A DNA stretch of 13,762 nucleotides from Geobacter metallireducens GS-15. Lineage in GTDB: Bacteria > Desulfobacterota > Desulfuromonadia > Geobacterales > Geobacteraceae. The translations under genes were made by a program, and so were the position numbers. Positions 604-13,458 of this stretch are shown piece by piece; within the stretch, counting starts at the first letter, position 1, and each line of letters starts with the position of its first letter. The notes under the pieces were generated by a model. The model ran no database searches and was not told where the DNA came from. It saw only the letters and a program-made list of their open reading frames with translations. The stretch is taken from positions 1 through 13,762 of the forward strand of contig NC_007515.1 in the NCBI RefSeq assembly GCF_000012925.1, read 5' to 3'.

Positions 604-619
604 CGGGGGGTTCCGGAAA

Positions 620-641
620 TTTTCCGTCACTTTTCTCACTG
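620..641. repeat. Degenerate fourth iteron copy (18/22 match)
   Basis: TTTTCCgTCacTTTTCTCACTg compared with the iteron TTTTCCTTCGATTTTCTCACTC. Confidence 0.45.
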
Positions 642-670
642 CTAGGGGGGTTGAAGGGGGTCGATCCTCT

Positions 671-695
671 CCCGAAAAGCGGGGGCGGTTGACCG
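671..695. repeat. Left copy of a 25-bp perfect inverted repeat (partner at 13434-13458)
   Basis: CCCGAAAAGCGGGGGCGGTTGACCG is the exact reverse complement of 13434-13458. Patchy similarity extends into the flanks. Confidence 0.9.
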
Positions 696-760
696 CTTCG
701 CGCTGTTCTCCCCTCCCTGAGAGGGAGGGGCCGGGGGGTGGGTGCTACTTACCCTGGAAG

Positions 761-769
761 TTTTCCACA
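761..769 (+). promoter_or_regulatory. DnaA-box-like 9-mer
   Basis: TTTTCCACA fits the relaxed DnaA box TTWTNCACA. It lies next to an AT-rich patch (about 781-830) and the iterons, the usual layout of iteron origins. Confidence 0.4.
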
Positions 770-866
770 AGTGGGGGTGTCTCTACTAAAAGGCTTTTAA
801 AAAAGCTATAGGCTTATACTATAGGGGAAGCTGTGAAGCCGCATGGTTCAAGGGTTTGATGGGTGG

Positions 867-964
867 TTTTCCTTCGATTTTCTCACTCGGCAACCTAAAT
901 TTTCCTTCGATTTTCTCACTCACGCCCGAAAAAGGAGATAAATTTTCCTTCGATTTTCTCACTC
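867..964. repeat. Three 22-bp direct repeats (iterons), the core of the candidate oriV
   Basis: TTTTCCTTCGATTTTCTCACTC is perfect at 867-888, 900-921 and 943-964. Copies 2 and 3 share an extended 30-mer. Start-to-start spacing is 33 and 43 bp. Copy 3 overlaps the rep stop codon (963-965). Confidence 0.8.
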
Positions 965-2063
965 ACGCCGCCACCCGTTTAACAGCCTTTTGCACATGGG
1001 TAGGGGATGGAAAAAGGGTTAGCTCCTTGGCATTGACGGAGAGCTTTGCATGGGGGTAAACGACCCTAACTTTTTTGAGGGCGTCTTTGAATTTTGTACG
1101 GAAGTTGTCTAGGTCGCTTGTCTCTGGGCCGAATTGGCTTTTAAGCTGCGGCCAGGATAACGGATAGGGTGCCGCCAAGTGGCACATACGCAACGTGAGC
1201 CACATATAAATGTCTAGGGCCATAGGTGATTGTTTCAGCGCCGCAAGCGCCCTAAGATCAATCGGGAAAGGCGCATTTAACGCCATGGCATAAAAATCTT
1301 CTCCCACCACAACAAACGATTCATCTAGGGTGAATTGATCCGGGTTCTTTGTATCCCACCACATAGCCGCCTTTGTGGCAACGTTGCACCGCTGGAATTG
1401 CCATGATTCTTTGCTGTTGTACTTCAGCTTGATGTCAGCAGAGAATAGCCGCTTTATCTGTTGTTCAACCTGTTTCCTGGTACGACTGTCCAGCCCTACA
1501 CCAATTGATCTTAAAAAATCGCTAAAACACTTGCCAAGAACAATCCGGCGGCTATTCGTCCGGACAATCTCAGTTACTAACCAACACGTTATCAAGCGGG
1601 GATAAGTACCATAAGGGATTCCATGATCTGGATCGGCTGTGATAATCAGGGAATATTTCCCACTGTCGCACCGATAATAAGGGGTTTTAGGGTCCCGGTG
1701 GGGAAAGGTGACTTGCACCAACGCTTTCGCTTGGTAGGCAATTTGACCGGCCGTTTTGGCCGGGACCTGCTCTATTTCAACCGCTTGTGTCAACAGCTTT
1801 TCGACCTTTTTAGTCAACAACGGTTTATCTTTTTTAGCTTTCTTAGTCAGTAATTTTTTAACTGCTATTTTTGCTTTCTCTTTGAAATCCTCTTCTGATA
1901 CTCCCCACAATCCATTGTTTTCAAAGTATGTCTGTAAAATATTCCCTATTGCCGCCATAGGGTCAATTGTCTTGCCGGTCTTCTCTTGCAAGTATTCAAT
2001 ATAAAGCTGTAGCTCTTCAAAGACGGCCTTGGGTATCTCTATTTCCATTTCAGTGAATAACAT
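963..2063 (-). CDS. repA: Plasmid replication initiator, RepA_C-type (plasmid-encoded RepA family)
   Basis: 366-aa ORF. The central segment GIPYGTYPRLITCWLVTEIVRT and the C-terminal half resemble the plasmid RepA family as I recall it. Iterons lie immediately 3'. The start is 3 nt after the upstream ORF stop. Confidence 0.8.
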   Translation of the reverse strand: MLFTEMEIEIPKAVFEELQLYIEYLQEKTGKTIDPMAAIGNILQTYFENNGLWGVSEEDFKEKAKIAVKKLLTKKAKKDKPLLTKKVEKLLTQAVEIEQVPAKTAGQIAYQAKALVQVTFPHRDPKTPYYRCDSGKYSLIITADPDHGIPYGTYPRLITCWLVTEIVRTNSRRIVLGKCFSDFLRSIGVGLDSRTRKQVEQQIKRLFSADIKLKYNSKESWQFQRCNVATKAAMWWDTKNPDQFTLDESFVVVGEDFYAMALNAPFPIDLRALAALKQSPMALDIYMWLTLRMCHLAAPYPLSWPQLKSQFGPETSDLDNFRTKFKDALKKVRVVYPHAKLSVNAKELTLFPSPTHVQKAVKRVAA

Positions 2064-2379: not shown

Positions 2380-3693
2380 CACTACTGTCCGGTTAATAGT
2401 TGAATAAGTTCAGTTGGTTGCGCTCAGGATAATCAGCATTTCGCTTGAGAGCCTCCGCAACCAGCGATGAAATGGGCTTTTTCTCGAACAAGTTGACCTC
2501 CAGAATCTGTAGAAAAGTGTAGAGCGAACACGGAACCCCCAACTTCTTTTTCGTGATCGCCACCAGCAGATAGATGCACAAGGCAACCCATATCTGGCTC
2601 TTCACGGCATTGACTGACGTTCCGATGAACGACTTGATCCGCAGGTGCTGTTTGATCCATTTGAAAAACAGCTCCACCTGCCAGCGCTGCTTGTAAATCG
2701 CAGCCACCGTCGCTGCCGGAATCTCGAAGTTGTTCGTGAGAAATACGAGTCGCTTGTTCCGTTCTTTGTCAACATAGCTGACCCGGCGCAGTTTCTCCGG
2801 ATACCCCTTTTTCGACTTCTGCGTCACCAGGGTGATAATCTGGTCTGCCCGTACACCTGATTCCTTGTCCTTCGGATGGGAATATAACCGCTGGCATTTC
2901 AGGTTGTCCTTTGCCCGAACTACGAAGAATGCTCCCTGCTTGTGGATGGAGTGGAGCCGGGCAAAATCGACATACCCTCTGTCCATCGTGTAAATGGCAT
3001 CCTTTGCAACCGGCAGATGGTCCAGCATCCTGACATCGTGGACCTTGCCAGTGGTAATAGTGACCCAGGTCGGAATGGGACCACGCAGATCAATGAGCGT
3101 ATGCATCTTGACCGCCGCCTTGGTTTTGCGGAACTCGGCCCATGGGAACAGCGTAAGGCACAGGTCGATAGTGGTCGAGTCAAAGGCGTAGAGCGGTTGC
3201 GTAAGCTCAACGGAGATGGCATCAGCCTGGTACAGCTGCTGAGCTATGCCGATCAGTACATGACCGAAGTCTTGGAAGATACGCCAGTCCCTGCGCTCGT
3301 TCGCGTCGGCAAGGGTCGTGCGGGAGACATCACCACGAAAGCCGATGTGGTACAGCTTCTCCTGGTGGGAGTTCAGGCAGGTCTCGATATCCCGCAAGCT
3401 CTCACGGCCAGCCATCTGGGCATAAGCCAGGCAGAGGAACTGGTCATAGGTCGAGAACTTCTTCTCCCGATACTCGCCACGGTGTCGGCGAACGCAGAGA
3501 TTGAATTCGTACCGGGGCAGAAACTGCAGAAGTTGTTTGAAAACGGTCGGACCGGTGTGCATTGCTCCCCTCCTGTAAAGGGAGGAAGGCTACACTCAGA
3601 ACGAATTCATGTCGAAAAAAGAACAATTGTGCCAAAGAGCAATAAAGTTCAACAAGTTACAGCTGTACAATCAAAGTTTACCGGACAGTAGTA
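2380..3693 (-). mobile_element. IS4-family insertion sequence (1314 bp)
   Basis: Terminal inverted repeats are CACTACTGTCCGGTTAA (left) and TACTACTGTCCGGTAAA (right end, reverse complement), 15/17 matching. There is a single transposase ORF and flanking 9-bp direct repeats. Confidence 0.85.
2393..3562 (-). CDS. IS4-family DDE transposase
   Basis: 389 aa. The C-terminal YKQRWQVELFFKWIK gives the Y-2-R-3-E-6-K signature of IS4-type transposases. DRGY and other DDE-region motifs are present. SD AGGAGGGG lies upstream. Confidence 0.9.
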   Translation of the reverse strand: MHTGPTVFKQLLQFLPRYEFNLCVRRHRGEYREKKFSTYDQFLCLAYAQMAGRESLRDIETCLNSHQEKLYHIGFRGDVSRTTLADANERRDWRIFQDFGHVLIGIAQQLYQADAISVELTQPLYAFDSTTIDLCLTLFPWAEFRKTKAAVKMHTLIDLRGPIPTWVTITTGKVHDVRMLDHLPVAKDAIYTMDRGYVDFARLHSIHKQGAFFVVRAKDNLKCQRLYSHPKDKESGVRADQIITLVTQKSKKGYPEKLRRVSYVDKERNKRLVFLTNNFEIPAATVAAIYKQRWQVELFFKWIKQHLRIKSFIGTSVNAVKSQIWVALCIYLLVAITKKKLGVPCSLYTFLQILEVNLFEKKPISSLVAEALKRNADYPERNQLNLFNY

Positions 3694-4574: not shown

Positions 4575-4784
4575 TCACTCTTCAAGTTTTTCCCTCAGCC
4601 AGGCTTTACCCTCTTCCTCGGTGAGAAACCCATTATCTAGGGCTTTCTTTGCCCTCTCGCCCCATGGGATAGCCTCCCGGATGAAATCCGCGTCCAGTTC
4701 CGGGGAGTCGGTAAGGTCGATTTCTTCGTCCTTCATGGCCTCGATCCGGGGCCAGTCGGTTCTTGATTCCGGGGTTTTGCTCAT
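4575..4784 (-). CDS. Small acidic protein coupled to relE, with an N-terminal motif like BrnA/DUF4415-type antitoxins
   Basis: 69 aa. The ATG overlaps the relE stop (ATGA at 4781-4784). TDWPRIEAMKDEEIDLTDSPELDADF resembles the TDWxRxxAMxDEEID..PEL motif I associate with DUF4415/BrnA proteins. The usual C-terminal RHH-like part seems absent. Confidence 0.6.
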   Translation of the reverse strand: MSKTPESRTDWPRIEAMKDEEIDLTDSPELDADFIREAIPWGERAKKALDNGFLTEEEGKAWLREKLEE

Positions 4785-5053
4785 CTTTCGTAGACCTCCC
4801 GGCGGTTGCCTACCCTCACAACGAGAATTACTAACGCCTCGTCTTCTATGCTGGTGATGATCCTATAGTCACCTACGCGGTATTTCCAAAAGTCTCCGAA
4901 TCTGGAACCCTTCAGGGCCTCCCCGATACTGCGGGGATCGTCAAGGCGTGCGACACGCTCAAAGAGGAATTTCAAGACCCTCCCGCTTATTTGAGGGTCC
5001 AGCTTCTTTAATTCCCGCCGGGCGGCGGGGTCTATTTCAACTTTCCAGACCAT
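4781..5053 (-). CDS. relE: RelE/ParE-superfamily toxin (RelE/StbE-like)
   Basis: 90 aa. It shows the typical pattern MVWKVEIDPAARRELKKLD..ALKGSRFGDFWKYRVGDYRIITSIEDEALVILVVRVGNRREVY and overlaps the upstream antitoxin gene by 17 nt. Confidence 0.85.
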   Translation of the reverse strand: MVWKVEIDPAARRELKKLDPQISGRVLKFLFERVARLDDPRSIGEALKGSRFGDFWKYRVGDYRIITSIEDEALVILVVRVGNRREVYER

Positions 5054-5261
5054 ATTCTTTCATCACTTCTTCAAGGGGTATGGTTTTGGTTCGTCCGGCC
5101 CTAATGTCTTCAAGGCGCTTCTCGGCCAAGTAAATGTCTTCCAGGTCGTCAAGATATTCAACAAGGGCCTCCCGGACGTAATAGCTTTTGCTCCGGCCGG
5201 TGGCCTTGGCGAGGGAGTCAAGGCGGGTTTCGATTTCCTCGGGCAGTCTGATTGCTAACAT
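5037..5261 (-). CDS. relB: Ribbon-helix-helix antitoxin (RelB/CopG-like)
   Basis: 74 aa. The N-terminal segment MLAIRLPEEIETRLDSLAKATGRSKSYYVREAL is RHH-like. DDLEDIYLAEKRLEDIRAG is typical of RelE-partner antitoxins. SD AGGAGG is present. Confidence 0.8.
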   Translation of the reverse strand: MLAIRLPEEIETRLDSLAKATGRSKSYYVREALVEYLDDLEDIYLAEKRLEDIRAGRTKTIPLEEVMKEYGLES

Positions 5262-5276
5262 GGGCTTGTTCCTCCT

Positions 5277-5296
5277 TTGTTATACACGTATAACAA
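5277..5296. promoter_or_regulatory. Palindromic operator candidate for relBE autoregulation
   Basis: TTGTTATAC-ac-GTATAACAA has perfect 9-bp arms. It sits directly upstream of the relB SD and overlaps -10-like TATA hexamers (minus strand TTGCTC, 17 nt, TATACG). Confidence 0.5.
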
Positions 5297-5809: not shown

Positions 5810-5884
5810 ATCAAGCCCCCTGTCATAACTTGTTAAGTGTTTACCATGAGGCTGTAAACCTAGCATTTGACAGGCAAAAAGGCA

Positions 5885-5968: not shown

Positions 5969-6000
5969 GTTTCAATCCTCGCCCTTGTGGGGCGCTCCGG
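5969..6000 (-). CRISPR. Solitary CRISPR-repeat-like element (type I-C-like), single copy, no array
   Basis: The minus strand reads CCGGAGCGCCCCACAAGGGCGAGGATTGAAAC. The recalled I-C repeat is GTCGCGCCCCGCACGGGCGCGTGGATTGAAAC. Ungapped identity is 22/32, and the last 10 nt are identical. A 5-bp GC stem with a 5-nt loop ends exactly 11 nt from the 3' end, as in I-C repeats. Confidence 0.4.
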
Positions 6001-6010
6001 CCTGGGCCGG

Positions 6011-6196
6011 TTACTTCTTTCCTTTGTAGTAGTCCAGCATGTTTTTTTCCGGTCCCGCCTTCGGGAGTTCCCCTTTCTTGAGGGCCTTTGCCGGTTGGCC
6101 GTCCGCCGTGTAACCCTCGGGGGCCTTGTTGCACCCTGCAACCAACATCGCCCCCATAACAACTACAACCAGCCCCATAATAACTTGTTTTTTCAT
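6011..6196 (-). CDS. Small lipoprotein (61 aa), TrbK-like position, candidate entry-exclusion protein
   Basis: MKKQVIMGLVVVVMGAMLVAGC carries the lipobox LVAGC. SD AGGAGGG is present. Only the last 61 codons of the 176-aa track ORF are credible. Small lipoproteins next to trbJ are typically entry-exclusion factors such as RP4 TrbK. Confidence 0.7.
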   Translation of the reverse strand: MKKQVIMGLVVVVMGAMLVAGCNKAPEGYTADGQPAKALKKGELPKAGPEKNMLDYYKGKK

Positions 6197-6236
6197 AGCT
6201 TTTCCCTCCTTTGTGGTTGTGACCGATTCCGGCCGG

Positions 6237-6956
6237 TTATTTTTTCTTCCTGAGATAGTCGAGCATGTTTCTATCGTCCCCCTTTGGTAAGTCCCCTTTC
6301 TTGAGGGGCTTTGCCTTTTCGGCGGCCTGGGCGGCCATGTAGGACGATTGTTCACGGGCACTTGTTGCCATGATCTGCTGTAGCTGGATGAGTTGTTGCG
6401 CCACCATTGCCGAAATCTGGTTGCCCGCCTGGGCGGCGGCAAGCTGGCCGTCTGCGCTGTTGGAAGCGGCGACAAGGGCGTTGAGGGCGTCTTGATCGGT
6501 AGCGGCGTTGCTGATAAGGCCCTGGGCCAACATGGCGTCACGGACGGAGTTTTGAAGCTGCTGGTTTGCCTTGGCGGCCTGGGCGGCGTAGTCCTTCCCG
6601 CTCATGCCGTTGTAGGCGGCCATGTCCGGGTAATACTGGTCAAAAGCCCCCTCCGTGCGGCCGTAATCGTAAGTAATGCCCCTGGTCTTCTGCTGGATTT
6701 CGGCAAGCTGCCGAATGCCGTTCATGATCCGGCCGCGTATCTGGTCGCTGTTGAGTTGCCGGGCCTGTCGTATGGCAACTTCAAGTTGCTGGTATTGAGT
6801 GGCTAGTTGCTCGGCGGTGTTGATGGCCGTGGCTACCTGCTGCACGTAGCTAAACAGGTTCTGTGCCCAGTTGGTGTAATCGAGCACCGGGATTGTTGCA
6901 TGAGCCTGGGCGGACATGCTCAGGATCAGGACGGTGACAATAAGTGCTTTTTTCAT
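6237..6956 (-). CDS. trbJ: P-type conjugative transfer protein TrbJ (VirB5-like)
   Basis: The preferred start is MKKALIVTVLILSMSAQAHA (signal peptide, SD AGGAGG, ATG at 6954-6956), giving 239 aa. IPVLDYTNWAQNLFSYVQQ and the Q-rich helical body are TrbJ-like. Confidence 0.8.
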   Translation of the reverse strand: MKKALIVTVLILSMSAQAHATIPVLDYTNWAQNLFSYVQQVATAINTAEQLATQYQQLEVAIRQARQLNSDQIRGRIMNGIRQLAEIQQKTRGITYDYGRTEGAFDQYYPDMAAYNGMSGKDYAAQAAKANQQLQNSVRDAMLAQGLISNAATDQDALNALVAASNSADGQLAAAQAGNQISAMVAQQLIQLQQIMATSAREQSSYMAAQAAEKAKPLKKGDLPKGDDRNMLDYLRKKK

Positions 6957-6974
6957 GGTTTGTTCCTCCTTTGC

Positions 6975-7042: not shown

Positions 7043-8494
7043 TTAATCGACGTGGAGCCGGACCCCTGCCCCGCCTCCGGCGCTGGCGTCCTGGGGAACT
7101 GCTCTTTGGCTCTGCTGCCATGCGTCTTGTAGGCTGCTCCGGCGGGGTTGGCCCTTACCGTTCCCCCCTCCGCTTCCGACGTTGGACCCTTGCAAGCTGC
7201 TGGTGCCTCCGCCGGTCCCCGTGGTCGGCGCTGGTTCGGTCTTCCCGGCATCGGTTGCGGTGGTGTCTGCGCTGCCAGTCGCCGGGGGTGTGGCGTCTGT
7301 GGTTGTAGCGGTGGTGTCTGCTGCCGGTGCCGGTGTGGGGGTGGCCTCAGTCTTCCCGGTGTCTGCTGCTCCTTTGGCTGCTGCATCGGCGGCCGGTTTA
7401 AGGCTGCTGCCTCCCGATGCCGGTTTGATCCCTCCGGCGCTCCCGGCTTCGGCGGCTGAAATGGCCCCGCTCTTGGCGGCCTGGAACGCGGACGCTCCGG
7501 GCATTGCTCCTGCTGCGGCTCGGGCAACGTTGCCAAGGAAAGAGCCGTTCCCGGCTGCTGCTGCGGCCTTGGCTCCGGCGAGGCCTCCGGCTACTGCTGC
7601 CCCTCCGGTTGCCATACCAGCGGCGGCCATGGCTGGTGCTGCTGCCCCTGCGGCGGCACTCAAGGCGGTACCGGCGGCGGCTCCGGCGGACAGGGAAGGG
7701 GACCCGGAAAGGACGGCGGAAGCCACACCGGGGGCCTGGGCAACCACAAAGGCAATAACGGCCACCGTTACACCTAATGTCATCATTTGATTAAACGTTG
7801 GATCAGGCCCAAGAGCCGGGAGAGCCAAAAGGACCGGCTGGATCACCGCCACCACGAATGACAAAACCATTAACTTGATCCCGAAGGCGATTATTGCGCC
7901 GATGGCCTTTTCCGACAAAAACGCGGTGTGCTTACTGATTCCGAAGGGGAGAAGGATGATACCAAGGGTGGAAACGATGCCAAATTCGATGAAGGTAATC
8001 ATTATCTGACACGCCATGACGACATAAGCCAGAATCACAATTAGATAACAGCCGTAAGCCATGAGCCTGTCACCGATTGCAGTTATAGCCATGTGTTGTA
8101 TAGCGTCATAGATTGGATCAGCAGCCAGAAAGCCCGCCGAAATCAAGGACGAAGGGTTTTTCATGGAAAAGGATACCCCCGCCCCTCCGGCCTTCAAACC
8201 TACCGCAATAAAGCCGTCAAGGATGATTTCAGCGAGGCCGGAACGGGCGACCCCTTGAACCAGAAAAATGAAAAAACCGATGGTGAGGATCTTTTTAACC
8301 AATGGGGGGATTATGTTGTCTTCCCCCCCCTTCAGGGCATGAAATGCCCCCAAGAGGACCATTTCGATTACTGCCAGGGCTCCGGCAATATACATGGCCC
8401 ATGACAGCAAGGCCCCTTTGCCGGTCCCAAAAACGGAGTTAAAGGTTTCAAGTACCTGGGTGAGAATTTGAACATCTGGGGTTGCGGTTGCCAT
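7043..8494 (-). CDS. trbL: P-type conjugative transfer protein TrbL (VirB6-like)
   Basis: The preferred start is MATATPDVQ (ATG at 8492-8494, SD AGGAG), giving 483 aa. It is a polytopic membrane protein with a long Ala/Gly/Thr/Pro-rich C-terminal tail, as is typical of TrbL. Confidence 0.8.
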   Translation of the reverse strand: MATATPDVQILTQVLETFNSVFGTGKGALLSWAMYIAGALAVIEMVLLGAFHALKGGEDNIIPPLVKKILTIGFFIFLVQGVARSGLAEIILDGFIAVGLKAGGAGVSFSMKNPSSLISAGFLAADPIYDAIQHMAITAIGDRLMAYGCYLIVILAYVVMACQIMITFIEFGIVSTLGIILLPFGISKHTAFLSEKAIGAIIAFGIKLMVLSFVVAVIQPVLLALPALGPDPTFNQMMTLGVTVAVIAFVVAQAPGVASAVLSGSPSLSAGAAAGTALSAAAGAAAPAMAAAGMATGGAAVAGGLAGAKAAAAAGNGSFLGNVARAAAGAMPGASAFQAAKSGAISAAEAGSAGGIKPASGGSSLKPAADAAAKGAADTGKTEATPTPAPAADTTATTTDATPPATGSADTTATDAGKTEPAPTTGTGGGTSSLQGSNVGSGGGNGKGQPRRSSLQDAWQQSQRAVPQDASAGGGAGVRLHVD

Positions 8495-8571
8495 GGTGAC
8501 TCCTTTCTTTTCGGCAGAGTGCCTTATTTGGCTATACCGAAAATGCACGAAAAACCCAAATTACAGCCTGT

Positions 8572-10803
8572 TTAGCGGTCCATGCCCTTCCCACGGTCAA
8601 TATCCTTTTGCACCCGGTTAATCTGCTGCTGAATGTCTTTGACGATCTGGCGTCGGTCCCGTGGATCGGTGCCGGGTTCCAGCTTATAGGCCCGGTCTTT
8701 CTTCGGGTCGGCGGCAAGGGTCTTTTCGATCTTCTTCAGGTCTGCCCGGTAGGCCCTGGCCTCTCTGGTTTCCTGGTCAACCGCGTTGATTTTGGCCTCT
8801 TCCGCCTGTACCTGCTTTTGCACTTCAGGCCGTTCCAGGTAGCTATGGAGCCGGGCCGTGTTGACTTCGTTTGTGGCGAGTCGTGCGGTAAGCTCTTCTC
8901 TATTAATGGTTGATACTTTGCCACCGGCCATGTCGGTTGCGAGTTTCAGGGCTTCGGCGTCCAGGTCTGTCCGCTCTTTCTTGATTGCCTCGGAAATGCC
9001 TTTAGTGGCGGTCTGCTCTGCTACCCTTCGGGCGTCGGTTTTGCCGTCGATCTGGCCTTTTTCGGCAAGCCATTTTTCGCCCTGGTCGATCTTGGCCGTA
9101 ATGATCTTGATTTCATCCCGGATTTCCGGGAGGAGCTCCCGGCCCTTGATCTGCTGGCCGATGCCCTGAGCCTTCTTCAGTTCGGCAATGTAGGGCTGTA
9201 GCTCTTTATTCGTTATCTCGATGCCAAGTTTCACGGCTTCGGCTGCTGCGAGGCGCTTCCAGGCCGTCGAGCCGGTAAGCTCAAAGGATCGGCCGAATTT
9301 CTCTTGACTCAGGAGGAGCCCCGCCTTGATCGCGGCCGGGTCGTTCTTCGAGTGGCCCAAAAAGAGGAGTTGACGGCCGGTGTCCCGGTAGGCTTCGGCC
9401 CCGCTCTTGTCCAGGAAAGAGACGTTGCCGTGTCTCGATACCTTGATTTCAAGGTCTTTCAGGGTAGTAAGCGGGGTTTTCTTTGCGGCCTCTTCTTCTC
9501 CTGTGGTGCCGGGCTCCGGGGCTTCAACTTCCAGGCGGTTCTTTTTCTGCCGTAGCATGTAGATAGCCGCTTCGTTGCCCTTGTTGGCCCGTTCGACAAG
9601 GTACTTGTCCCACCCCTTCTTAGCCTCGCCAAATTCGCCAAGGGCGGCCCGTTTCTCTGCGGCCCTGTCTTCTATCTCGGCTTTGCGCCGGGCGGCTCCA
9701 AGGTTGATTGCGGCCCTCTGGGCTCGTTTCTCGATGCCCGGAAGGTCCGATTCCTTCAGGGCCTTTACCTGCTCTTTCTTCCATTCGATAATCTCTTTTC
9801 TTCCGGCCGTGAGTTCGGCGGTTATGGCCTTGCGCTCCTCGGCGTGGTGCTTCCATTCCTCCTGATAATCCTTAAATTCCCGGTAAAGCTGCTTTTGCTC
9901 GGGCTCCACTGCAATCATCTTTTCCGTGTCGCTTTTGTAGTCGATCACGGGGGCAAGGTCTTTGACTCTGGCGGTCGGTTCCTGGTACGGGCCTAATGCT
10001 TTTTCCAGCCGTCCGCGTGATAGTTGCCGGGCGATTTCTGACGCCTTCGCGTGGTACTGATCCGGGTCGTTTCGGTCTACGATCACAAGGCCCTGATTCT
10101 TAGGATCAGGCCGGATATCCAGGTTATATTTTGCTGCTGCCCGGTGTAGATCGTCCCACGATCCGTCGGCGAGAGCGGCGGTTAAATCCTTCCCGGCCCG
10201 TTCCTTGGCCCACGTCTTAAAGCTCTTCTCCCCGGTTTCAATTTCCCGCCTTCTATTGCCCTGGTCCAGGGAAAACGGGCGGTCTGGATCATGGGACTTT
10301 TTGACGATTTCCCCCTTGTCATTAATCATATAGCTGCCGTTGTCACGCTCGAAACCATGTTGTAATTCCATCTCCCGGCAAGCCTTGTCGAGCTTCATTC
10401 GGTCCTTGTCGATGGGCCGGACATGACCCGTCCGGTAGTCAATCCGGTTGATACAAATGTGCAAATGATAGTTATCAGTGTCACGGTGGAAACCGGCCAC
10501 GGCCTGTAAATCTTCCATGCCTAATGCCTTTAAGGCATGGTCAAAACATGCCTCTATTTCTTCTCTGGTCGGCTTCTCTCCCTCCCGCCACGAAAACCCG
10601 AAATGATAGGCGGCATGGGCGCTCTTCCCGGTCGATTCGACAAACTCCATTTCTTCAATGGCGGTGTTAATGTCGTCAACATTCCGGGTCAATTCGTATT
10701 CGACTTTTTCGTGTGGCTCAAAGTCTTTCCCAAGGCCACGAATGTATTTGATCGTAGCGGAAAAGCTACGACCGCCGGGGGCGTCCCATACTCTGCTAAT
10801 CAT
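8572..10803 (-). CDS. Conjugative relaxase (relaxase/mobilisation nuclease domain, RP4 TraI / MOBP-like)
   Basis: The preferred start is MISRVWD (ATG at 10801-10803, overlapping the mobC stop), giving 743 aa. Tyr20 lies in ATIKYIRG. The histidine triad motif is HRDTDNYHLHICINRI (RP4 TraI has HTDTDNLHIHIAINKI). The middle is a long coiled-coil, and the C-terminal segment resembles relaxase-associated domains. Confidence 0.9.
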   Translation of the reverse strand: MISRVWDAPGGRSFSATIKYIRGLGKDFEPHEKVEYELTRNVDDINTAIEEMEFVESTGKSAHAAYHFGFSWREGEKPTREEIEACFDHALKALGMEDLQAVAGFHRDTDNYHLHICINRIDYRTGHVRPIDKDRMKLDKACREMELQHGFERDNGSYMINDKGEIVKKSHDPDRPFSLDQGNRRREIETGEKSFKTWAKERAGKDLTAALADGSWDDLHRAAAKYNLDIRPDPKNQGLVIVDRNDPDQYHAKASEIARQLSRGRLEKALGPYQEPTARVKDLAPVIDYKSDTEKMIAVEPEQKQLYREFKDYQEEWKHHAEERKAITAELTAGRKEIIEWKKEQVKALKESDLPGIEKRAQRAAINLGAARRKAEIEDRAAEKRAALGEFGEAKKGWDKYLVERANKGNEAAIYMLRQKKNRLEVEAPEPGTTGEEEAAKKTPLTTLKDLEIKVSRHGNVSFLDKSGAEAYRDTGRQLLFLGHSKNDPAAIKAGLLLSQEKFGRSFELTGSTAWKRLAAAEAVKLGIEITNKELQPYIAELKKAQGIGQQIKGRELLPEIRDEIKIITAKIDQGEKWLAEKGQIDGKTDARRVAEQTATKGISEAIKKERTDLDAEALKLATDMAGGKVSTINREELTARLATNEVNTARLHSYLERPEVQKQVQAEEAKINAVDQETREARAYRADLKKIEKTLAADPKKDRAYKLEPGTDPRDRRQIVKDIQQQINRVQKDIDRGKGMDR

Positions 10804-11176
10804 CTTCGGCCCCCTCTTCTGCGGCAAATTGCCGCTGAATTGCCACGGCTGCCCGGCGGATTTCGTCCAGGGCAATATCAATATTCCCTAGGTTTTTTTG
10901 GGCCTCCTCGGGGGTGATTTCCTTACGGGTCATGAGGTATTTTTGCAAGCCGCCGAAGCGGCGAAGCTCACCCACTGCCCGGCGTAGATCGGCTACGGCG
11001 GCAATGGTCGTCTTGCTCGGCGTAGCCCGTCCATCGAGACAACGGCGGGCGAGTTCTCCGACAGATACCCCGGAGGCCGTGGCCTTGGCTGTGTAGCGGG
11101 AAAGGTCCTCGGCGGTAACTCTGATATGGATCATTTCACTTTTATTCCGGCGTTCGCTTCCTGACTTAGCTTTCAT
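10796..11176 (-). CDS. mobC: MobC/TraJ-like relaxosome accessory protein (RHH)
   Basis: 126 aa. IHIRVTAEDLSRYTAKATASGVSVGELARRCL is the usual MobC-type RHH segment. It lies directly upstream of and overlaps the relaxase gene. SD AGGAG is present. Confidence 0.7.
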   Translation of the reverse strand: MKAKSGSERRNKSEMIHIRVTAEDLSRYTAKATASGVSVGELARRCLDGRATPSKTTIAAVADLRRAVGELRRFGGLQKYLMTRKEITPEEAQKNLGNIDIALDEIRRAAVAIQRQFAAEEGAEDD

Positions 11177-11308: not shown

Positions 11309-11351
11309 GTATCGACCGCTATTTATAGCGGAGATACAAGCGCTATCCTGT
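11309..11351 (+). other. Candidate oriT core: imperfect inverted repeat plus nick-site-like TATCCTG/T
   Basis: The inverted repeat is GTATC-ga-CCGCTAT-tt-ATAGCGG-a-GATAC (11309-11337). Then comes aagcgc, TATCCTG (11344-11350), then T. This matches the MOBP nic consensus YATCCTG/Y. It lies in the mobC-upstream intergenic region, next to an AT-rich stretch. Confidence 0.5.
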
Positions 11352-11382: not shown

Positions 11383-11627
11383 TATAAATGCCGACGCGAG
11401 GCGGAAACCCTTATTTCTTCGTTTACCCGCCGGGCTGGGTGTCATGGTGTGATATCATATATACAGTTTCAAGCCCTTAACAGTTGCGGTTTCACAGATT
11501 GCTATATGCAACATGATGTCACTTTGTAAGACAAAATGACGCCATGTTTTATGGCCGTTTTTATGCCGACACGGCACAGATAGTGCAAATATTCAATGTA
11601 AGACACGATAACAACAGGGGGTGCAAC

Positions 11628-12224
11628 ATGGGAAATGACAAAAATACAGCTAAAACGCTGAAAATCAGTAAGTCAAAAAGCGGACAGAGTGACGAAAAAC
11701 CGACATATTCAGTTGACAAAATGCGTCAATGGTTGAATGACAACGCAAGTGACACAACGCCGGATAAAACGCCTACAATTTGGGATAGACTCATAGAAAT
11801 CAAAGACGATATTGCAGCCGTCTACCCTTCCAAGATGAGCGCCGATAAAGTGGTGAAGGGGCTTAAAGACAATGGTCTTGATATTACAAAGACAACGTTC
11901 CTGACGTACTGGCAATTAATCAAGGCGGGGCATACTACACGGCCATCGACCAGCAAGAAAAAACAGCCGGTTTCTGAGCCTGAAAATTCCGGAAAAAATG
12001 AATCTGGTTTTGATGAAAACCCGGCTCCGGTTTCTGAGGAAAAAACGGGCGAGGATTTGAAAAATTCTGAAGGGGAAAAAGAAACCTACCCTTGCCCTAA
12101 GTGCAAACGTATTTTGACAGTTATGAGAGAGACAAAACCCGGCGTTCATCTGGGGCAAAAATACATTAGTTGCGATGCCGACACCGGGGGGTGTGGGTAT
12201 TTCTCATATGACGACGGGAAATAA
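11628..12224 (+). CDS. Hypothetical protein with a C-terminal topoisomerase-type C4 zinc ribbon (orfA)
   Basis: The preferred start is MGNDKNTAK (ATG at 11628, SD GGGGG), giving 198 aa. The C-terminus CPKC-x22-CDADTGGC resembles the Topo I/III C4 zinc finger. The middle is low-complexity and acidic. An HTH-like segment SADKVVKGLKDNGLDITKTTFLTYW is present. Confidence 0.65.
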   Translation: MGNDKNTAKTLKISKSKSGQSDEKPTYSVDKMRQWLNDNASDTTPDKTPTIWDRLIEIKDDIAAVYPSKMSADKVVKGLKDNGLDITKTTFLTYWQLIKAGHTTRPSTSKKKQPVSEPENSGKNESGFDENPAPVSEEKTGEDLKNSEGEKETYPCPKCKRILTVMRETKPGVHLGQKYISCDADTGGCGYFSYDDGK

Positions 12225-12303
12225 AAAACCCCTGCCATAAATGACAGGGGCCATGAATCAAGGCGGGCGCTCTTTGGACGGAAAACCCGCCTCAATCTCA
12301 CAG
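12223..12303 (-). ncRNA. Candidate small RNA encoded by module copy 1 (hypothetical)
   Basis: The minus strand reads TGGTATAAA (extended -10-like, 12308-12316). The transcript would then be CCACUGUGAG.., a stem-loop, and a canonical terminator hairpin plus U6. The 5' end is a guess. Confidence 0.25.
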
Positions 12304-12334
12304 TGGTTTTATACCACGGGAAGGATGGAAAAAA
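12223..12334. repeat. Structured intergenic module, copy 1
   Basis: A6, then hairpin CCCCTGCCATaAATGACAGGGG (12229-12250). A second hairpin GGCGGG..CCCGCC spans 12262-12291. The conserved box is CTCACAGTGG-ttt-TATACCAC (12297-12317), followed by a purine-rich SD. It is homologous to 12966-13084. Confidence 0.85.
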
Positions 12335-12967
12335 ATGAAAAAAGAGTCTCCAAAACATGAACTGAAGTCGTTAAAGGATCTTCTCGACTTTGTGAGAGAC
12401 TACCCGGAATTTATGGATGAAATCACGACAGCCATGCCAAAAGCAACCGCGTTGCCCGGCAGCAATCAATCAGACTTCATACAACCGATAATGCCCCACA
12501 TTGTCAGGTTGAAAATTTGGGGAATGTCAGACAACTCTATACGTCAGCTTATTGATTTTGAAGGGCCATTTTATTTTGATCCTCGCGGCTTCGGCAAAGT
12601 GCTTCATACAGCAATAAAAAAATATGCGCGTTCTGTTCGTTATGAAATTGCCGAAGAAGTAGGAAAAATAATTCGTGAATCCGGCGGTGACGACGGCCAT
12701 TTAACAGAGACGTACATGGATGAAGCTATCCATCTTTTCGACAAGTGGCGTTTCCCAGAAGATCAAGGCTATGAAAATGTCACTGATTACGAATTCGGCG
12801 AGGCTATTCTTTGGGCCATGCGGGGTTTTGATCCATCTCTTTATTTCCGTCGTGTGACTGCTCAAGTCCTGGGCCGGAAGATGGTAAAGCGGCTCAAGCT
12901 CCTTTATGAAATTGACTTTGACAGTAACGAGACTCATCCGGCCGAACCCGCCCACAAGGCGGCATAA
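12335..12967 (+). CDS. Hypothetical 210-aa protein (orfB)
   Basis: Clean ORF with SD GGAAGGA. No family recognised. Confidence 0.7.
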   Translation: MKKESPKHELKSLKDLLDFVRDYPEFMDEITTAMPKATALPGSNQSDFIQPIMPHIVRLKIWGMSDNSIRQLIDFEGPFYFDPRGFGKVLHTAIKKYARSVRYEIAEEVGKIIRESGGDDGHLTETYMDEAIHLFDKWRFPEDQGYENVTDYEFGEAILWAMRGFDPSLYFRRVTAQVLGRKMVKRLKLLYEIDFDSNETHPAEPAHKAA

Positions 12968-13052
12968 AAAAACCCCTGCCATGAATGACAGGGGCCGTGG
13001 ATCGCGGCGGGGTGCCCTCGGTGAAACACCGTCCCCGCCTTAACTCTCACAG
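12966..13052 (-). ncRNA. Candidate small RNA encoded by module copy 2 (hypothetical)
   Basis: Same architecture as copy 1 on the minus strand: TGGTATAGC, stem-loop, terminator hairpin plus U7. The 5' end is a guess. Confidence 0.2.
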
Positions 13053-13084
13053 TGGAGCTATACCACAGAAAGGAAGGAAAAACC
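12966..13084. repeat. Structured intergenic module, copy 2
   Basis: A7, then hairpin CCCCTGCCATgAATGACAGGGG (12973-12994). A second hairpin GGCGGGG..CCCCGCC spans 13006-13039. The box is CTCACAGTGG-agc-TATACCAC (13046-13066), followed by an SD. Confidence 0.85.
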
Positions 13085-13333
13085 ATGGCCGCACAACGTT
13101 TTTTTGAGATTGGATCACGGGGGTTTGTTGTTAATTTCCGCATTATGTGCCGGGGAGGGTTCCAGGCCCATTGTCAGGACGTGCCACACCGGGCGAAGGG
13201 GACCACGATTGACGGGGCGTTTTCGGCGTTCCTGGAAACTCTCCCGGATGCCTGGGTGGATGGTGTAATAGACTCTCTGCCGGTCCAGGATCAACGACAA
13301 GTGCGGTTGTGGCGTCAGGATGAGGCGGCGTAG
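13085..13333 (+). CDS. Hypothetical 82-aa protein (orfC)
   Basis: The preferred start is MAAQRFFEIG (ATG at 13085, SD AAGGAAGG). There is a faint resemblance to the HicB/UPF0150-like fold (GGFQAHCQDVPHRAKGTTIDGAFSAFLETL), but it is not reliable. Confidence 0.55.
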   Translation: MAAQRFFEIGSRGFVVNFRIMCRGGFQAHCQDVPHRAKGTTIDGAFSAFLETLPDAWVDGVIDSLPVQDQRQVRLWRQDEAA

Positions 13334-13377
13334 AAGGGCGAACGTCCTAAAATCGGTTTTGAGCGGTTTTCAGGTCA

Positions 13378-13408
13378 AGGGGATAGGCAACTATCCCCTT
13401 TTCTTTTT
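13378..13408 (+). terminator. Rho-independent terminator of the orfA-orfB-orfC operon
   Basis: AGGGGATA-ggcaac-TATCCCCT followed by TTTCTTTTT. Confidence 0.7.
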
Positions 13409-13433: not shown

Positions 13434-13458
13434 CGGTCAACCGCCCCCGCTTTTCGGG
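13434..13458. repeat. Right copy of the 25-bp perfect inverted repeat (partner at 671-695)
   Basis: CGGTCAACCGCCCCCGCTTTTCGGG is the exact reverse complement of 671-695. Confidence 0.9.

What the first reader, a model, noticed from the sequence alone, without database searches (positions are those of the whole stretch)
12223..13084. Duplicated structured intergenic module of about 110-120 nt that reads as a small-RNA gene on the opposite strand
The orfA/orfB and orfB/orfC spacers are homologous copies of one element. Each has an A6-7 run and a near-identical hairpin CCCCTGCCAT(A/G)AATGACAGGGG. Each has a second hairpin whose stem is kept while its loop differs in sequence and length (GGCGGG-18 nt-CCCGCC versus GGCGGGG-20 nt-CCCCGCC). 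Each has the strictly conserved box CTCACAGTGG-N3-TATACCAC, then the SD of the next ORF. On the + strand the first hairpin has no U tract, so it is not a terminator for the operon. On the minus strand each copy has three parts: an extended -10-like TGGTATAAA/TGGTATAGC, a transcript of about 80 nt with an internal stem-loop, and a textbook terminator (10-bp stem with one mismatch plus T6-7). This suggests two paralogous antisense sRNAs complementary to the operon's intercistronic RNA. Alternatives are cis-acting RNA leaders or processing sites for each cistron, or single-strand initiation signals on the incoming T-strand, because the + strand is the predicted transferred strand and would template exactly this RNA. 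The hairpin arm CCCCTGTCAT is also complementary to the SD region (ATGACAGGGGG, minus strand of 5816-5826) of the HTH gene. That 10-nt match may be coincidental.
Basis: partly seen in the sequence, partly recalled or inferred. Interest (0 to 1): 0.75.

Follow-up and report, generated by a model that had tools for sequence, protein, structure and literature searches.

The report
Repeated antisense small-RNA modules in plasmid operon
The two spacers between the three genes next to the transfer origin of the Geobacter metallireducens plasmid pMET1 are conserved copies of one about 110-base module that most likely encodes a short structured RNA on the opposite strand, an ordinary kind of plasmid regulator in an unusual, repeated and portable arrangement.

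Summary
The window is the whole 13,762-bp plasmid pMET1. Spacers 12223-12334 and 12967-13084 are 85% identical copies of a three-hairpin module.

I found 12 distinct copies in related environmental plasmids whose relaxases are only 39-72% identical. All lie in spacers of the operon that leaves oriT, always in the same orientation, and nowhere else.

The comparison favours the minus (antisense) strand as the folded RNA:
- Minimum folding energy is lower on the antisense strand in all 11 copies tested, and the z-score is better in 10 of 11.
- 20 stem sites carry G·U on the antisense strand, against 2 that would be G·U on the sense strand.
- Hairpins H1 and H3 show compensatory changes.
- H1 is a minus-strand terminator.
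- The conserved box carries TGnTA (extended -10-like) in all 12 copies.

Four Clostridia phage- or mobile-element-like loci contain the same box. There it is a perfect antisense promoter (TTGACA-17-TGnTATAAT) followed by a terminator.

Best reading (about 0.55): each module is a gene for a cis-antisense RNA of about 80 nt that damps the neighbouring cistrons. No transcript data exist, Geobacter copies lack a -35, and a role as a single-strand priming signal on the transferred strand is not excluded. The 10-nt match to the HTH gene is not conserved. The modules also mark the breakpoints where cargo genes are exchanged.

The parts
12223..12334 (-). Module M1: the complete orfA/orfB spacer. On the minus strand it reads promoter-like box, then the H2 stem-loop, then the H1 terminator.
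   Evidence: It is 88.5% identical to its orthologues in L001 and L075, while the flanking coding sequences are 54-79% identical.
12967..13084 (-). Module M2: the complete orfB/orfC spacer, a paralogue of M1.
   Evidence: It is 87.3% identical to the single module of L076, against 78.7% for orfC.
12224..12301 (-). Predicted antisense RNA 1, about 78 nt. The 5' end is inferred at about 12299-12301, roughly 7 nt after the hexamer. The 3' end lies in the U-run 12228-12223.
   Evidence: Minus-strand RNA fold -47.3 kcal/mol, z -5.1, against -36.1, z -2.8 for the plus strand. Both ends are inferred, not measured.
12967..13050 (-). Predicted antisense RNA 2, about 84 nt.
   Evidence: Minus-strand fold -47.1 kcal/mol, z -2.4, against -38.8, z -1.5. 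Both ends are inferred.
12229..12250 (-). H1 of M1: a 9-10 bp GC-rich stem with one U·G, loop UUUA, followed by U6. It is an intrinsic terminator on the minus strand. On the plus strand the same position is a C·A mismatch and there is no U-run.
   Evidence: The U·G is replaced by U-A in L75a.
12973..12994 (-). H1 of M2: the same stem, loop UUCA, followed by U7.
12252..12302 (-). H2 of M1: a long stem-loop. The core is GGCGGG/CCCGCC. A lower stem, GUGAGAUUGA/UUGAUUCAU, pairs only on the minus-strand RNA, through several G·U pairs.
   Evidence: Six pairs of this helix vary on one side only, passing through G·U.
13000..13051 (-). H2 of M2: core GGCGGGG/CCCCGCC, with an inner hairpin CGGUG/CACCG.
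12297..12317 (-). Box/H3 of M1. The minus strand reads GTGG-TATAAAA-CCAC-TGTGAG. The extended -10-like TGG TATAAA lies at 12316-12308, and H3 is the short hairpin GTGG(T)/(A)CCAC.
   Evidence: TGnTA is present in all 12 copies. The H3 pair at position 4 is G-C, A-T or C-G in different copies.
13046..13066 (-). Box/H3 of M2. The minus strand reads TGG TATAGC at 13065-13057.
11628..12224 (+). orfA (Gmet_A3576), first gene of the operon leaving oriT. It has a DUF5338-like N-terminal part and a zinc-ribbon C-terminus. The likely start is 11628, not 11544.
12335..12967 (+). orfB (Gmet_A3577), the variable 'cargo' gene bracketed by M1 and M2. No family match.
13085..13333 (+). orfC, 82 aa, no family match. 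The operon terminator follows at 13377-13400.
11316..11351 (+). oriT core: inverted repeat CCGCTAT-TT-ATAGCGG, then the nick-region motif CTATCCTG|T on the plus strand.
   Evidence: The same layout is present in L001, L066 and L077. The relaxase and NikA genes lie to its left.

Best explanation
Each spacer is a compact gene for a cis-encoded antisense small RNA, read on the minus strand.
- Promoter: an extended -10-type promoter whose core is the conserved box (TGnTA inside hairpin H3). It sits just upstream of the Shine-Dalgarno sequence of the next plus-strand gene.
- RNA: an RNA of about 80 nt whose 5' end is buried in a long stem-loop (H2).
- Terminator: an intrinsic terminator (H1 plus U-run) that ends exactly at the stop codon of the previous gene.

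The RNA is fully complementary to the intercistronic part of the orfA-orfB-orfC mRNA. I infer that it lowers expression of the neighbouring cistrons. It could do so by RNA-RNA pairing followed by duplex cleavage or a translation block. It could also do so by head-on interference between the antisense promoter and operon transcription.

The plus strand is the transferred strand and has the sense polarity. Neither promoter can therefore fire until the complementary strand has been made. The design would then give a pulse of leader-operon expression after entry, followed by damping as the stable RNA accumulates.

Shown here: the repeat, its conservation, the strand asymmetry of pairing, the terminator, and the promoter-like motif. 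Inferred: the transcription itself, the RNA ends, the target effect and the timing role.
For: 1. Real, conserved and context-specific.
- There are 12 distinct copies in plasmids whose relaxases are 39-72% identical to pMET1's.
- All lie in spacers of the operon leaving oriT, in one orientation, with none elsewhere on those plasmids.
- The module is more conserved than the flanking genes: M1 is 88.5% identical, against 54-79% for the coding sequences.

2. The folded strand is the antisense strand.
- RNA minimum free energy is lower on the antisense strand in 11 of 11 copies.
- The z-score against dinucleotide shuffles is better in 10 of 11, for example -5.1 vs -2.8, -5.0 vs -1.2 and -5.6 vs -2.7.
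- In single-sequence folds, antisense structures hold 60 G·U pairs and no A·C 1x1 mismatch. Sense structures hold 13 G·U pairs and 11 A·C mismatches.
- On the consensus structures, 94.8% and 97.9% of cells pair on the antisense strand, against 76.5% and 84.0% for the mirrored sense strand.
- 13+7 stem sites carry G·U on the antisense strand, against 1+1 that would be G·U on the sense strand.
- The expected mutational bias cannot explain this. C-to-T deamination of the exposed sense or transferred strand would create the opposite pattern (inference).

3. Compensatory changes.
- The H3 pair at position 4 is G-C, A-U or C-G in different copies.
- The base of H1 is G-C, C-G or U-A.
- In the distant lineage, 0 of 500 shuffles reach the observed pairing or covariation score.

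4. Terminator. H1 plus T6-7 is the top terminator-like site on the minus strand. H1 of L066 copy A also qualifies.

5. Promoter.
- TGnTA is invariant in all 12 copies, and the antisense hexamer is always at least as good as the sense one.
- The inferred start falls at the foot of the H2 stem.
- Four homologous Clostridia loci with the identical box have TTGACA/T-17-TG-TATAAT on the antisense strand (12/12, 11/12 and 11/12 in the three loci scanned), followed by a terminator. The -35 was not part of my search pattern.
Against: - No expression data of any kind.
- In the Geobacter-type copies the hexamers are TATAAA, TATAGC and TATAGG, so they lack the usually critical final T. The -35 matches only 1-3 of 6 (my reading of the sequences). 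The consensus scan reports no promoter there.
- In the distant lineage the antisense H3 stem can extend by U·G and C-G pairs. That would place H3 inside the RNA and the promoter further upstream.
- H1 of L066 copy B has no U-rich tail.
- One stem site in L069 is G·U on the sense strand and A·C on the antisense strand.
- In the 7 close copies covariation is not above shuffles (84 of 500). The distant lineage has only 4-5 sequences.
- Homology between the Clostridia and Geobacter modules is uncertain, because the Clostridia loci were found through the box itself.
- The predicted RNA does not cover the Shine-Dalgarno sequence of the next gene. It shows no general complementarity to it beyond shuffled controls.
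Confidence: 0.55

Rival explanations
1. Single-strand initiation signals. On the incoming transferred (plus) strand the three hairpins would recruit primase or RNA polymerase, and the RNA made would prime complementary-strand synthesis across the preceding gene.
For: - The plus strand is the transferred strand, by the nick-motif orientation.
- It would template exactly the minus-sense RNA.
- The modules occur only in the first-entering operon.
- The plus strand still folds better than shuffles as DNA, with z -1.4 to -5.1.
- A three-hairpin layout recalls G4-type priming signals (own knowledge).
Against: - The transferred strand is the worse-folding strand in 11 of 12 copies as DNA. It carries conserved C·A mismatches where the other strand has G·T or G·U.
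- Selection for a single-stranded DNA structure on this strand should have removed these mismatches.
- The hairpins are far too short to form a double-stranded -35/-10 mimic like Frpo.
- No primase gene was found on pMET1.
- The Clostridia relatives have an ordinary double-stranded promoter with a -35 outside any hairpin.
Confidence: 0.1
2. Antisense-facing terminators or insulators without a promoter of their own. H1 would stop read-through from the convergent minus-strand genes right of orfC. H2 and H3 would be accessory structures of that read-through RNA or of the sense mRNA.
For: - H1 is a strong minus-strand terminator.
- Minus-strand genes converge on orfC from about 13,580 onwards, and the hairpin at 13377-13400 has a T-run only on the plus strand.
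- The promoter motif in Geobacter copies is weak.
Against: - A second terminator (M1) behind the first would rarely be reached, yet it is the better conserved copy.
- Module position follows the gene junctions in plasmids with different downstream contexts, such as TraT and the coupling protein.
- This reading does not explain the invariant TGnTA, the box, or the perfect promoter in the Clostridia versions.
Confidence: 0.12
3. Cis-acting elements of the sense mRNA. These would be intercistronic processing or stability hairpins, with H3 acting as a 5' stabiliser or translation element in front of each Shine-Dalgarno sequence.
For: - The modules are certainly part of the operon transcript if orfA-C are co-transcribed, as predicted in PMC2700814.
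- H3 lies 2-6 nt before the Shine-Dalgarno sequence and shows compensatory changes that do not discriminate between strands.
- The H3-to-Shine-Dalgarno stretch CCACAGAAAGG is the part most conserved between lineages.
Against: - Sense-strand folds are weaker in every copy and close to shuffles in several, with z -0.6, -0.8 and -1.2.
- H1 and H2 are interrupted by C·A mismatches on the sense strand.
- This reading does not explain the A-run/T-run polarity.
Confidence: 0.1
4. Recombination sites or cassette boundaries. The repeats would exist because they mediate gain and loss of cargo genes, by homologous recombination or as attC-like folded sites, with no RNA function.
For: - Gene-content differences between relatives break exactly at the modules.
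- orfB (12345-12966) is replaced by an unrelated 171-aa gene in L075.
- L076 has one module and no middle gene.
- L066 differs from L068 by one [123-aa gene + module] unit.
Against: - These small plasmids carry no integron-type integrase. pMET1 has only an IS4-family transposase.
- There is no R/L box (GTTRRRY) organisation.
- Three separate hairpins, a terminator polarity and strand-asymmetric G·U pairs are not needed for homologous recombination.
- Exchange at repeats can be a by-product of having them.
Confidence: 0.05
5. H3 is an operator. The palindrome GTGGTA...TACCAC would bind a plasmid repressor that controls each cistron.
For: - H3 is a perfect 7-bp inverted repeat in some copies: GTGGTAC-AGG-GTACCAC in L066 and GTGGTAT-T-ATACCAC in the Clostridia loci.
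- A palindrome that overlaps a -10 is a common operator layout (own knowledge).
Against: - Spacing between half-sites varies (N7, N8, N9).
- The position-4 pair takes three different identities. That fits a hairpin, or neutral positions, better than a fixed protein contact.
- This reading could coexist with the main explanation.
Confidence: 0.05

Closest known systems
Phage cis-antisense RNAs made from an intercistronic promoter: lambda OOP RNA (77 nt) and P22 sar RNA (own knowledge)
   Same: All are short RNAs of about 70-80 nt. Each is transcribed against an operon from a promoter that sits between two cistrons and ends at an intrinsic terminator at or inside the 3' end of the upstream gene. 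Each acts on the operon mRNA by pairing.
   Different: Here the unit is repeated before each distal cistron of a plasmid leader operon and is portable between different cargo genes. It shares no sequence or Rfam relationship with those RNAs. The predicted RNA stops at the stop codon rather than overlapping much coding sequence.
Plasmid countertranscripts (ctRNAs): CopA of R1, RNAII of pMV158, the RSF1010/R1162 ctRNA, and Rfam ctRNA_pGA1 RF00236 (own knowledge for the biology)
   Same: Both are two-stem-loop RNAs with a U-tail, encoded opposite an intercistronic or leader region. Both have their own promoter and terminator, and loops that could start kissing contacts. H1 loops UUUA, UUCA and UUCG fit the YUNR motif.
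   Different: The target is not a replication gene but the operon next to oriT. There are two paralogous copies per plasmid. The only Rfam contact is a chance-level hit of L066 copy A to ctRNA_pGA1 (23.8 bits against a gathering score of 45, E 0.9).
Frpo/ssi single-stranded DNA promoters of plasmid leading regions (Masai & Arai 1997; PMC11541004)
   Same: Both are structured non-coding elements in the first-entering region, repeated in front of leading genes. The transferred strand would template the RNA.
   Different: Frpo is a long imperfect hairpin that carries -35 and -10 in its stem and drives the leading genes from the transferred strand. Here the transferred strand is the sense strand of the genes and the hairpins are 4-14 bp. 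The strand with the better structure is the non-transferred one.
Integron attC sites / gene cassettes (own knowledge)
   Same: Both are imperfect-palindrome spacers between promoterless open reading frames, and gene content varies exactly at the spacers.
   Different: There is no integrase, no R''/L''/L'/R' boxes, and three separate hairpins rather than one long bulged one. The element here has terminator and promoter features.

Membership tests
cis-antisense small RNA / plasmid countertranscript (functional class) | A structured RNA is encoded on the strand opposite the target mRNA | tested here: met
   Antisense folds are better in 11 of 11 copies by energy and 10 of 11 by z-score. G·U sites number 20 on the antisense strand against 2 on the sense strand. 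Pairing is 94.8% and 97.9% against 76.5% and 84.0%.
cis-antisense small RNA / plasmid countertranscript (functional class) | Own promoter | tested here: inconclusive
   TGnTA is invariant in 12 copies, but the Geobacter hexamers lack the final T and there is no -35. The consensus scan is negative in the window. Clostridia loci with the same box score 11-12 of 12 with TG.
cis-antisense small RNA / plasmid countertranscript (functional class) | Intrinsic terminator at the 3' end | tested here: met
   H1 plus T6-7 on the minus strand in both window copies. The same holds in L001, L075 and L076. In the distant lineage it is partial: copy A of L066 qualifies and copy B does not.
cis-antisense small RNA / plasmid countertranscript (functional class) | The transcript is detected and has an effect on the target | not testable with these tools
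   No expression data are available here. The pMET1 genome paper does not describe the elements.
Any Rfam family (ctRNA families included) | Covariance-model match at the gathering score | tested here: not met
   Permissive cmscan of the window and of L066, L069, L075 and L076 gave only chance-level hits on the modules: HepC_CRE E 0.027, ctRNA_pGA1 E 0.9 and NsiR1 E 0.76.
Frpo-type single-stranded DNA promoter | The transferred strand is the template of the downstream leading genes | tested here: not met
   The nick motif CTATCCTG|T and its inverted repeat are on the plus strand, which is the sense strand of orfA-C. The same holds in L066.
Frpo-type single-stranded DNA promoter | A long hairpin whose stem carries -35 and -10 | tested here: not met
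   The stems are 4-14 bp and separate. There is no -35 in or near a stem.
Primase- or primosome-type ssi signal | The single-stranded DNA structure on the transferred strand supports priming | not testable with these tools
   Indirect evidence only. The transferred strand folds (z -1.4 to -5.1) but less well than its complement in 11 of 12 copies.
Integron attC | R/L core sites (GTTRRRY) in one bulged palindrome, plus an integron integrase | tested here: not met
   By reading the sequence I found no such core sites in the two window modules. No integrase was found on pMET1 or on the related small plasmids.
Dispersed genomic repeat (REP/BIME/MITE-like) | Many copies scattered regardless of context | tested here: not met
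   The box pattern gave only 50 single hits in 185,579 species genomes, below my rough estimate of about 280 chance matches for 16 specified bases in that collection. None was in Geobacter and none has H1. The H1 pattern gave 13 metagenome hits, none with the module. nhmmer finds modules only in leader-operon spacers. Caveat: the host chromosome itself could not be searched directly.

The most novel reading that the evidence does not exclude
The transferred strand is the template of these RNAs. They could therefore be the first molecules made on the incoming single strand. The short H3 hairpin would re-create the double-stranded TGnTA part of an extended -10 promoter on single-stranded DNA. 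RNA polymerase would then lay down a structured RNA behind each leading gene that primes complementary-strand synthesis. That would be a minimal, distributed counterpart of Frpo working in the opposite gene polarity. The same portable promoter-terminator cassette may also be shared by mobile elements of distant phyla (Desulfuromonadota plasmids, Clostridia phage- or ICE-like elements) and may mark exchangeable cargo slots.
Probability: 0.1. Interest if true: 0.8.

Novelty: new member of a known kind. Interest (0 to 1): 0.5.

Why it matters
If the RNAs exist, pMET1 and its relatives carry an undescribed family of antisense regulators. They sit in the operon that enters a recipient first, not at the replication genes where plasmid antisense RNAs are usually found. 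There is one copy in front of each distal cistron.

This would be a simple, testable way to give newly arrived plasmids a pulse of 'establishment' gene expression in a lineage where the transferred strand has the sense polarity, so the Frpo route is unavailable.

The modules also delimit the slots where unrelated cargo genes are swapped between plasmids, which links a regulatory element to gene-content evolution. Practically, pMET1 is the native plasmid of a model metal-reducing bacterium, so its control elements are relevant for vector design.

Tried and rejected
- Rfam, permissive threshold, on the window and four related loci: nothing meaningful on the modules.
- PLSDB and phage collections with DNA (near and distant modes) and with orfA and orfC proteins: no match.
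- Box pattern in species genomes: 50 hits at chance level, apart from two Clostridia loci.
- H1 pattern in metagenomes: generic terminators and one unrelated conserved element.
- More distant relaxase relatives (L077-L080): same oriT layout but no module.
- Antisense open reading frames of 69-70 aa across the modules (12146-12358 and 12934-13143, minus strand): no Pfam match, and they run through the terminator. I did not compare their translations, but the two copies differ by indels, so one reading frame cannot be shared. Rejected.
- Sense-strand promoter in the box: the hexamers (TTTTAT, AGCTAT, ACCTAT, TACAGG) are never better than the antisense ones, and the Clostridia loci have no -35 on that strand. 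Rejected as the main reading.
- Trans target at the HTH gene Shine-Dalgarno region (5817-5826): not conserved in L001.
- General complementarity of the predicted RNA to the next gene's translation start: not better than shuffles. In that script the motif search that delimited each RNA and start site mis-set the limits for Gm1 and Gm2, so the result rests on the other ten copies.
- One MAFFT alignment of both lineages misaligned H2 and H3, so the lineages were analysed separately. No covariance model was built.
- PHROGs for orfA, orfB, orfC and cargo genes: no hits.
Full report
**What the window is.** orfB is 100% identical to GeomeDRAFT_3335 of Geobacter metallireducens, and the longest contig carrying it is 13,762 bp. 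The window is therefore the complete circular plasmid pMET1. The genome paper lists the three plus-strand genes as an operon of unknown function (Gmet_A3576-A3577-A3644) and does not describe the spacers (PMC2700814).

Gene content by Pfam:
- RepA_C, 963-2063 (-)
- IS4-family transposase, 2393-3562 (-)
- ParE/RHH pair, 4781-5261 (-)
- TrbL, 7043-8548 (-)
- relaxase (MobA/VirD2 + TraI_middle + LPD7), 8572-10881 (-)
- NikA-like, 10796-11176 (-)
- orfA, orfB and orfC, divergent on the plus strand

Between the two gene sets the plus strand reads as an inverted repeat (11316-11331) followed by CTATCCTG|T (11343-11351). From my own knowledge this is the MOBP nick-region consensus, with the repeat on the 5' side. 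The plus strand is therefore the transferred strand, and orfA-C enter first in sense polarity, like the RP4 leader operon.

**The observation.** The two spacers align at 85% identity. The box and H1 patterns each occur exactly twice, against none in 200 shuffles. H1 plus its T-run is the best terminator-like site of the region, on the minus strand in both copies. The operon's own plus-strand terminator comes only after orfC. The 'mismatch' in H1 is C·A on the plus strand and U·G on the minus strand.

**Relatives.** orfB has one homologue (75% identity), on an environmental contig (L001). That contig has the same gene order and both modules. Searches with the relaxase and with an orfA profile brought further small plasmids.
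- L075 and L076 are Geobacter-type.
- L066, L068, L069 (with identical copies in L070, L071, L073 and L074) and L091 form a second lineage with relaxases only 39% identical.
- All carry the same three-hairpin module in spacers of the operon leaving oriT. An nhmmer profile finds 12 distinct copies there and none anywhere else on these plasmids.
- More distant relaxase relatives (L077-L080) have none.
- The second lineage has different stem sequences but the same layout: H1 is GCCCCTCTAG...CTAGAAGGGC, H2 is GAYTGTYCGG...CCGAACAATC and H3 is GTGGTAC-AGG-GTACCAC.

The module is not a dispersed repeat. The box pattern gave only 50 single hits in 185,579 species genomes, below my rough chance estimate of about 280. 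None was in Geobacter and none has H1. The H1 pattern in metagenomes gave 13 hits without the module. M1 is more conserved (88.5%) than the flanking coding sequences (54-79%).

**Which strand folds.**
- As RNA, the antisense strand has the lower minimum free energy in all 11 copies tested.
- It has the better z-score against dinucleotide shuffles in 10 of 11. Shuffle means are similar on both strands, so base composition is not the cause.
- Antisense folds contain 60 G·U pairs and no A·C 1x1 mismatch. Sense folds contain 13 G·U pairs and 11 A·C mismatches.
- On RNAalifold consensus structures, 94.8% (7 Geobacter-type copies) and 97.9% (4 second-lineage copies) of cells pair on the antisense strand. 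The same pairs mirrored to the sense strand give 76.5% and 84.0%.
- G·U occurs at 13+7 stem sites, while only 1+1 sites would be G·U on the sense strand. These structures were predicted on the antisense alignment, which biases the count. The single-sequence result is symmetric and agrees.

Informative substitutions all go the same way. H1 U·G becomes U-A in L75a. H2 U-A in L66A becomes U·G at two positions in L66B and L68. Between lineages the conserved 5' arm GAUUG pairs with CAAUC in one and UUGAU in the other.

Compensatory changes occur in H3 (G-C, A-U, C-G) and at the base of H1 (G-C, C-G, U-A). In the second lineage 0 of 500 shuffles reach the observed pairing or covariation score. In the closely related Geobacter-type set covariation is not significant (84 of 500).

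**Promoter.** On the antisense strand H3 begins GTGnTA in every copy, so TGnTA (extended -10, positions -12 and -11) is invariant.
- The hexamers are TATAAA, TATAGC, TATAGG, TACCCT, TACCAT and TACTAT.
- None has a convincing -35, and the consensus scan does not call them.
- The inferred start, about 7 nt after the hexamer, falls at the foot of the long H2 stem. That gives RNAs of about 78 nt (12301 to 12224) and about 84 nt (13050 to 12967), each with two stem-loops and a U-tail.

Support comes from outside the family. Most hits of the box pattern look like chance matches. Four of them (L003, L031, L088, L090, from Clostridia MAGs and IMG/VR contigs) are homologous to one another and share the design. 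They have an A-run plus hairpin, then about 20 nt, then CACAGTGGTATTATACCAC, then RRAAAG...GTCAAG-ATG. On their antisense strand the box is TGGTATAAT. Exactly 17 nt upstream lies TTGACA or TTGACT, formed by the GTCAA just before the sense start codon. The scan scores L031 at 12/12 and L088 and L003 at 11/12, each with TG. It also calls a terminator about 40 nt downstream in L088 and L031, but none in L003; L090 was read by eye only. The -35 was not in my query. Whether these elements are truly homologous to the Geobacter modules is uncertain, because they were found through the box.

**Mechanism.** Best reading: each spacer is a cis-antisense small-RNA gene. The RNA is complementary to the intercistronic mRNA and ends at the upstream stop codon. 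The promoter sits on the ribosome-binding region of the downstream gene. I infer repression of the neighbouring cistrons by pairing (duplex cleavage or a translation effect), by head-on transcriptional interference, or both. Because the transferred strand is the sense strand, I also infer an expression pulse after complementary-strand synthesis, followed by damping.

No general complementarity of the RNA to the next translation start was found. In that script the motif search mis-set the RNA and start-site limits for Gm1 and Gm2, so the result rests on the other ten copies. The M1-type H2 loop does duplicate the Shine-Dalgarno region of the next gene, but this holds only for three close copies. 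The 10-nt match to the HTH gene is not conserved in L001.

**Rivals.**
- Priming signals on the transferred strand. That strand still folds as DNA, but less well than its complement in 11 of 12 copies and with conserved C·A mismatches. I cannot exclude this without biochemistry.
- Promoterless antisense terminators.
- Sense-mRNA elements.
- Cassette recombination sites.
- An operator at H3.

All are listed with their evidence in the Rival explanations section.

**Gene exchange.** The cassette observation is real in itself. Homology between pMET1 and L075 stops 10 nt into orfB and resumes at M2, with an unrelated 171-aa gene in between. L076 has one module and no middle gene. L066 and L068 differ by one gene-plus-module unit.

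**Comparison and verdict.** The design works like lambda OOP RNA, P22 sar RNA or plasmid countertranscripts (own knowledge). It matches no Rfam family, and the only paper I retrieved on pMET1 does not describe it. It fails the defining features of Frpo and of attC. I rate it a new member of a known kind, and real and conserved. The antisense-RNA reading is favoured at about 0.55, and interest is moderate.

Noticed in passing
window 5969-5998 (minus strand); L075 1857-1891 (+): Solitary CRISPR-like repeats, with no array. GGAGCGCCCCACAAGGGCGAGGATTGAAAC hits Rfam CRISPR-DR9 at 36.7 bits (gathering score 45; E 2.6e-7 in a local search). A second one in L075 (35.2 bits) lies just after the orfC homologue in the leading region. 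They could be solitary repeat units of the RNA anti-CRISPR type.
   Followed up: partly
window 12345-12966; L075 931-1446; L076 1056-1184; L066 5494-6114 vs L068 672-795: The modules are the breakpoints of gene-content differences. orfB is replaced by an unrelated 171-aa gene in L075 and is absent, with a single module, in L076. L066 has one extra [123-aa gene + module] unit relative to L068.
   Followed up: yes
L003 284-496; L031 1925-2153; L088 5140-5370; L090 9490-9721: This is a family of spacers in Clostridia MAG and IMG/VR contigs with the identical box. On the strand antisense to the flanking genes it forms TTGACA/T-17-TG-TATAAT and is followed by a terminator. In L088 and L090 the upstream gene is a 32-aa hydrophobic peptide with a KKKK tail (MNGMDIAVAITCIIMVWSFRGLLPQKKKKNRS) that looks like a type I toxin. 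The L088 context is phage- or ICE-like: PcfJ, Gp157, integrase, cI-type HTH.
   Followed up: partly
window 12276-12285 vs 12323-12332: The loop of H2 in M1 (GGACGGAAAA on the sense strand) duplicates the Shine-Dalgarno/spacer region of orfB (GGATGGAAAA). The antisense loop UUUUCCGUCC could therefore also pair with the orfB translation start. The same is true in L001 and L075 M1 copies, but not in M2 or in the second lineage.
   Followed up: partly
window 671-695 / 13434-13458 and 316-346 / 13341-13371: A 25-nt perfect inverted repeat and a 31-nt direct repeat (81%) bracket the junction of the circular plasmid, between the end of orfC and the iterons. The motif CTAAAATCGGTTTTGAG after orfC is conserved in L001, L075 and L076.
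   Followed up: no
window 616-969: Four 31-nt iteron-like direct repeats, two of them identical at 896-926 and 939-969, lie next to the 3' end of repA (the RepA_C protein, 963-2063 minus strand).
   Followed up: no
window 11450-11458 (+); L001 about 6340-6470: A candidate promoter for the orfA operon is also of the extended -10 type (TGATATCAT). In L001, TGATATCAC occurs twice inside two direct repeats of about 95 nt upstream of orfA.
   Followed up: no
window 11544-11627: The listed orfA start (11544) is probably too far upstream. The database protein and the L001 homologue start at the equivalent of 11628 (MGNDKNT...).
   Followed up: partly
L053-L055, L057, L059, L060, L064: Seven soil and sediment metagenome contigs share an unrelated conserved element that begins with the same hairpin: CCCCTGCCAGAAATGACAGGGGGTAAACCATCACGACATGCTATATAACTAACC. 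An A-run precedes it. It looks like the 3' end of a conserved small RNA read on the other strand.
   Followed up: no
window 5263-5279, 6197-6213, 6957-6973; 6005-6104 vs 6231-6327: Minus-strand genes share near-identical translation-start regions (reverse complement of GGNTTGTTCCTCCTTTG). A stretch of about 100 nt is repeated at a spacing of 223-226 nt, which suggests a partial tandem duplication in the 176/261-aa gene region.
   Followed up: no
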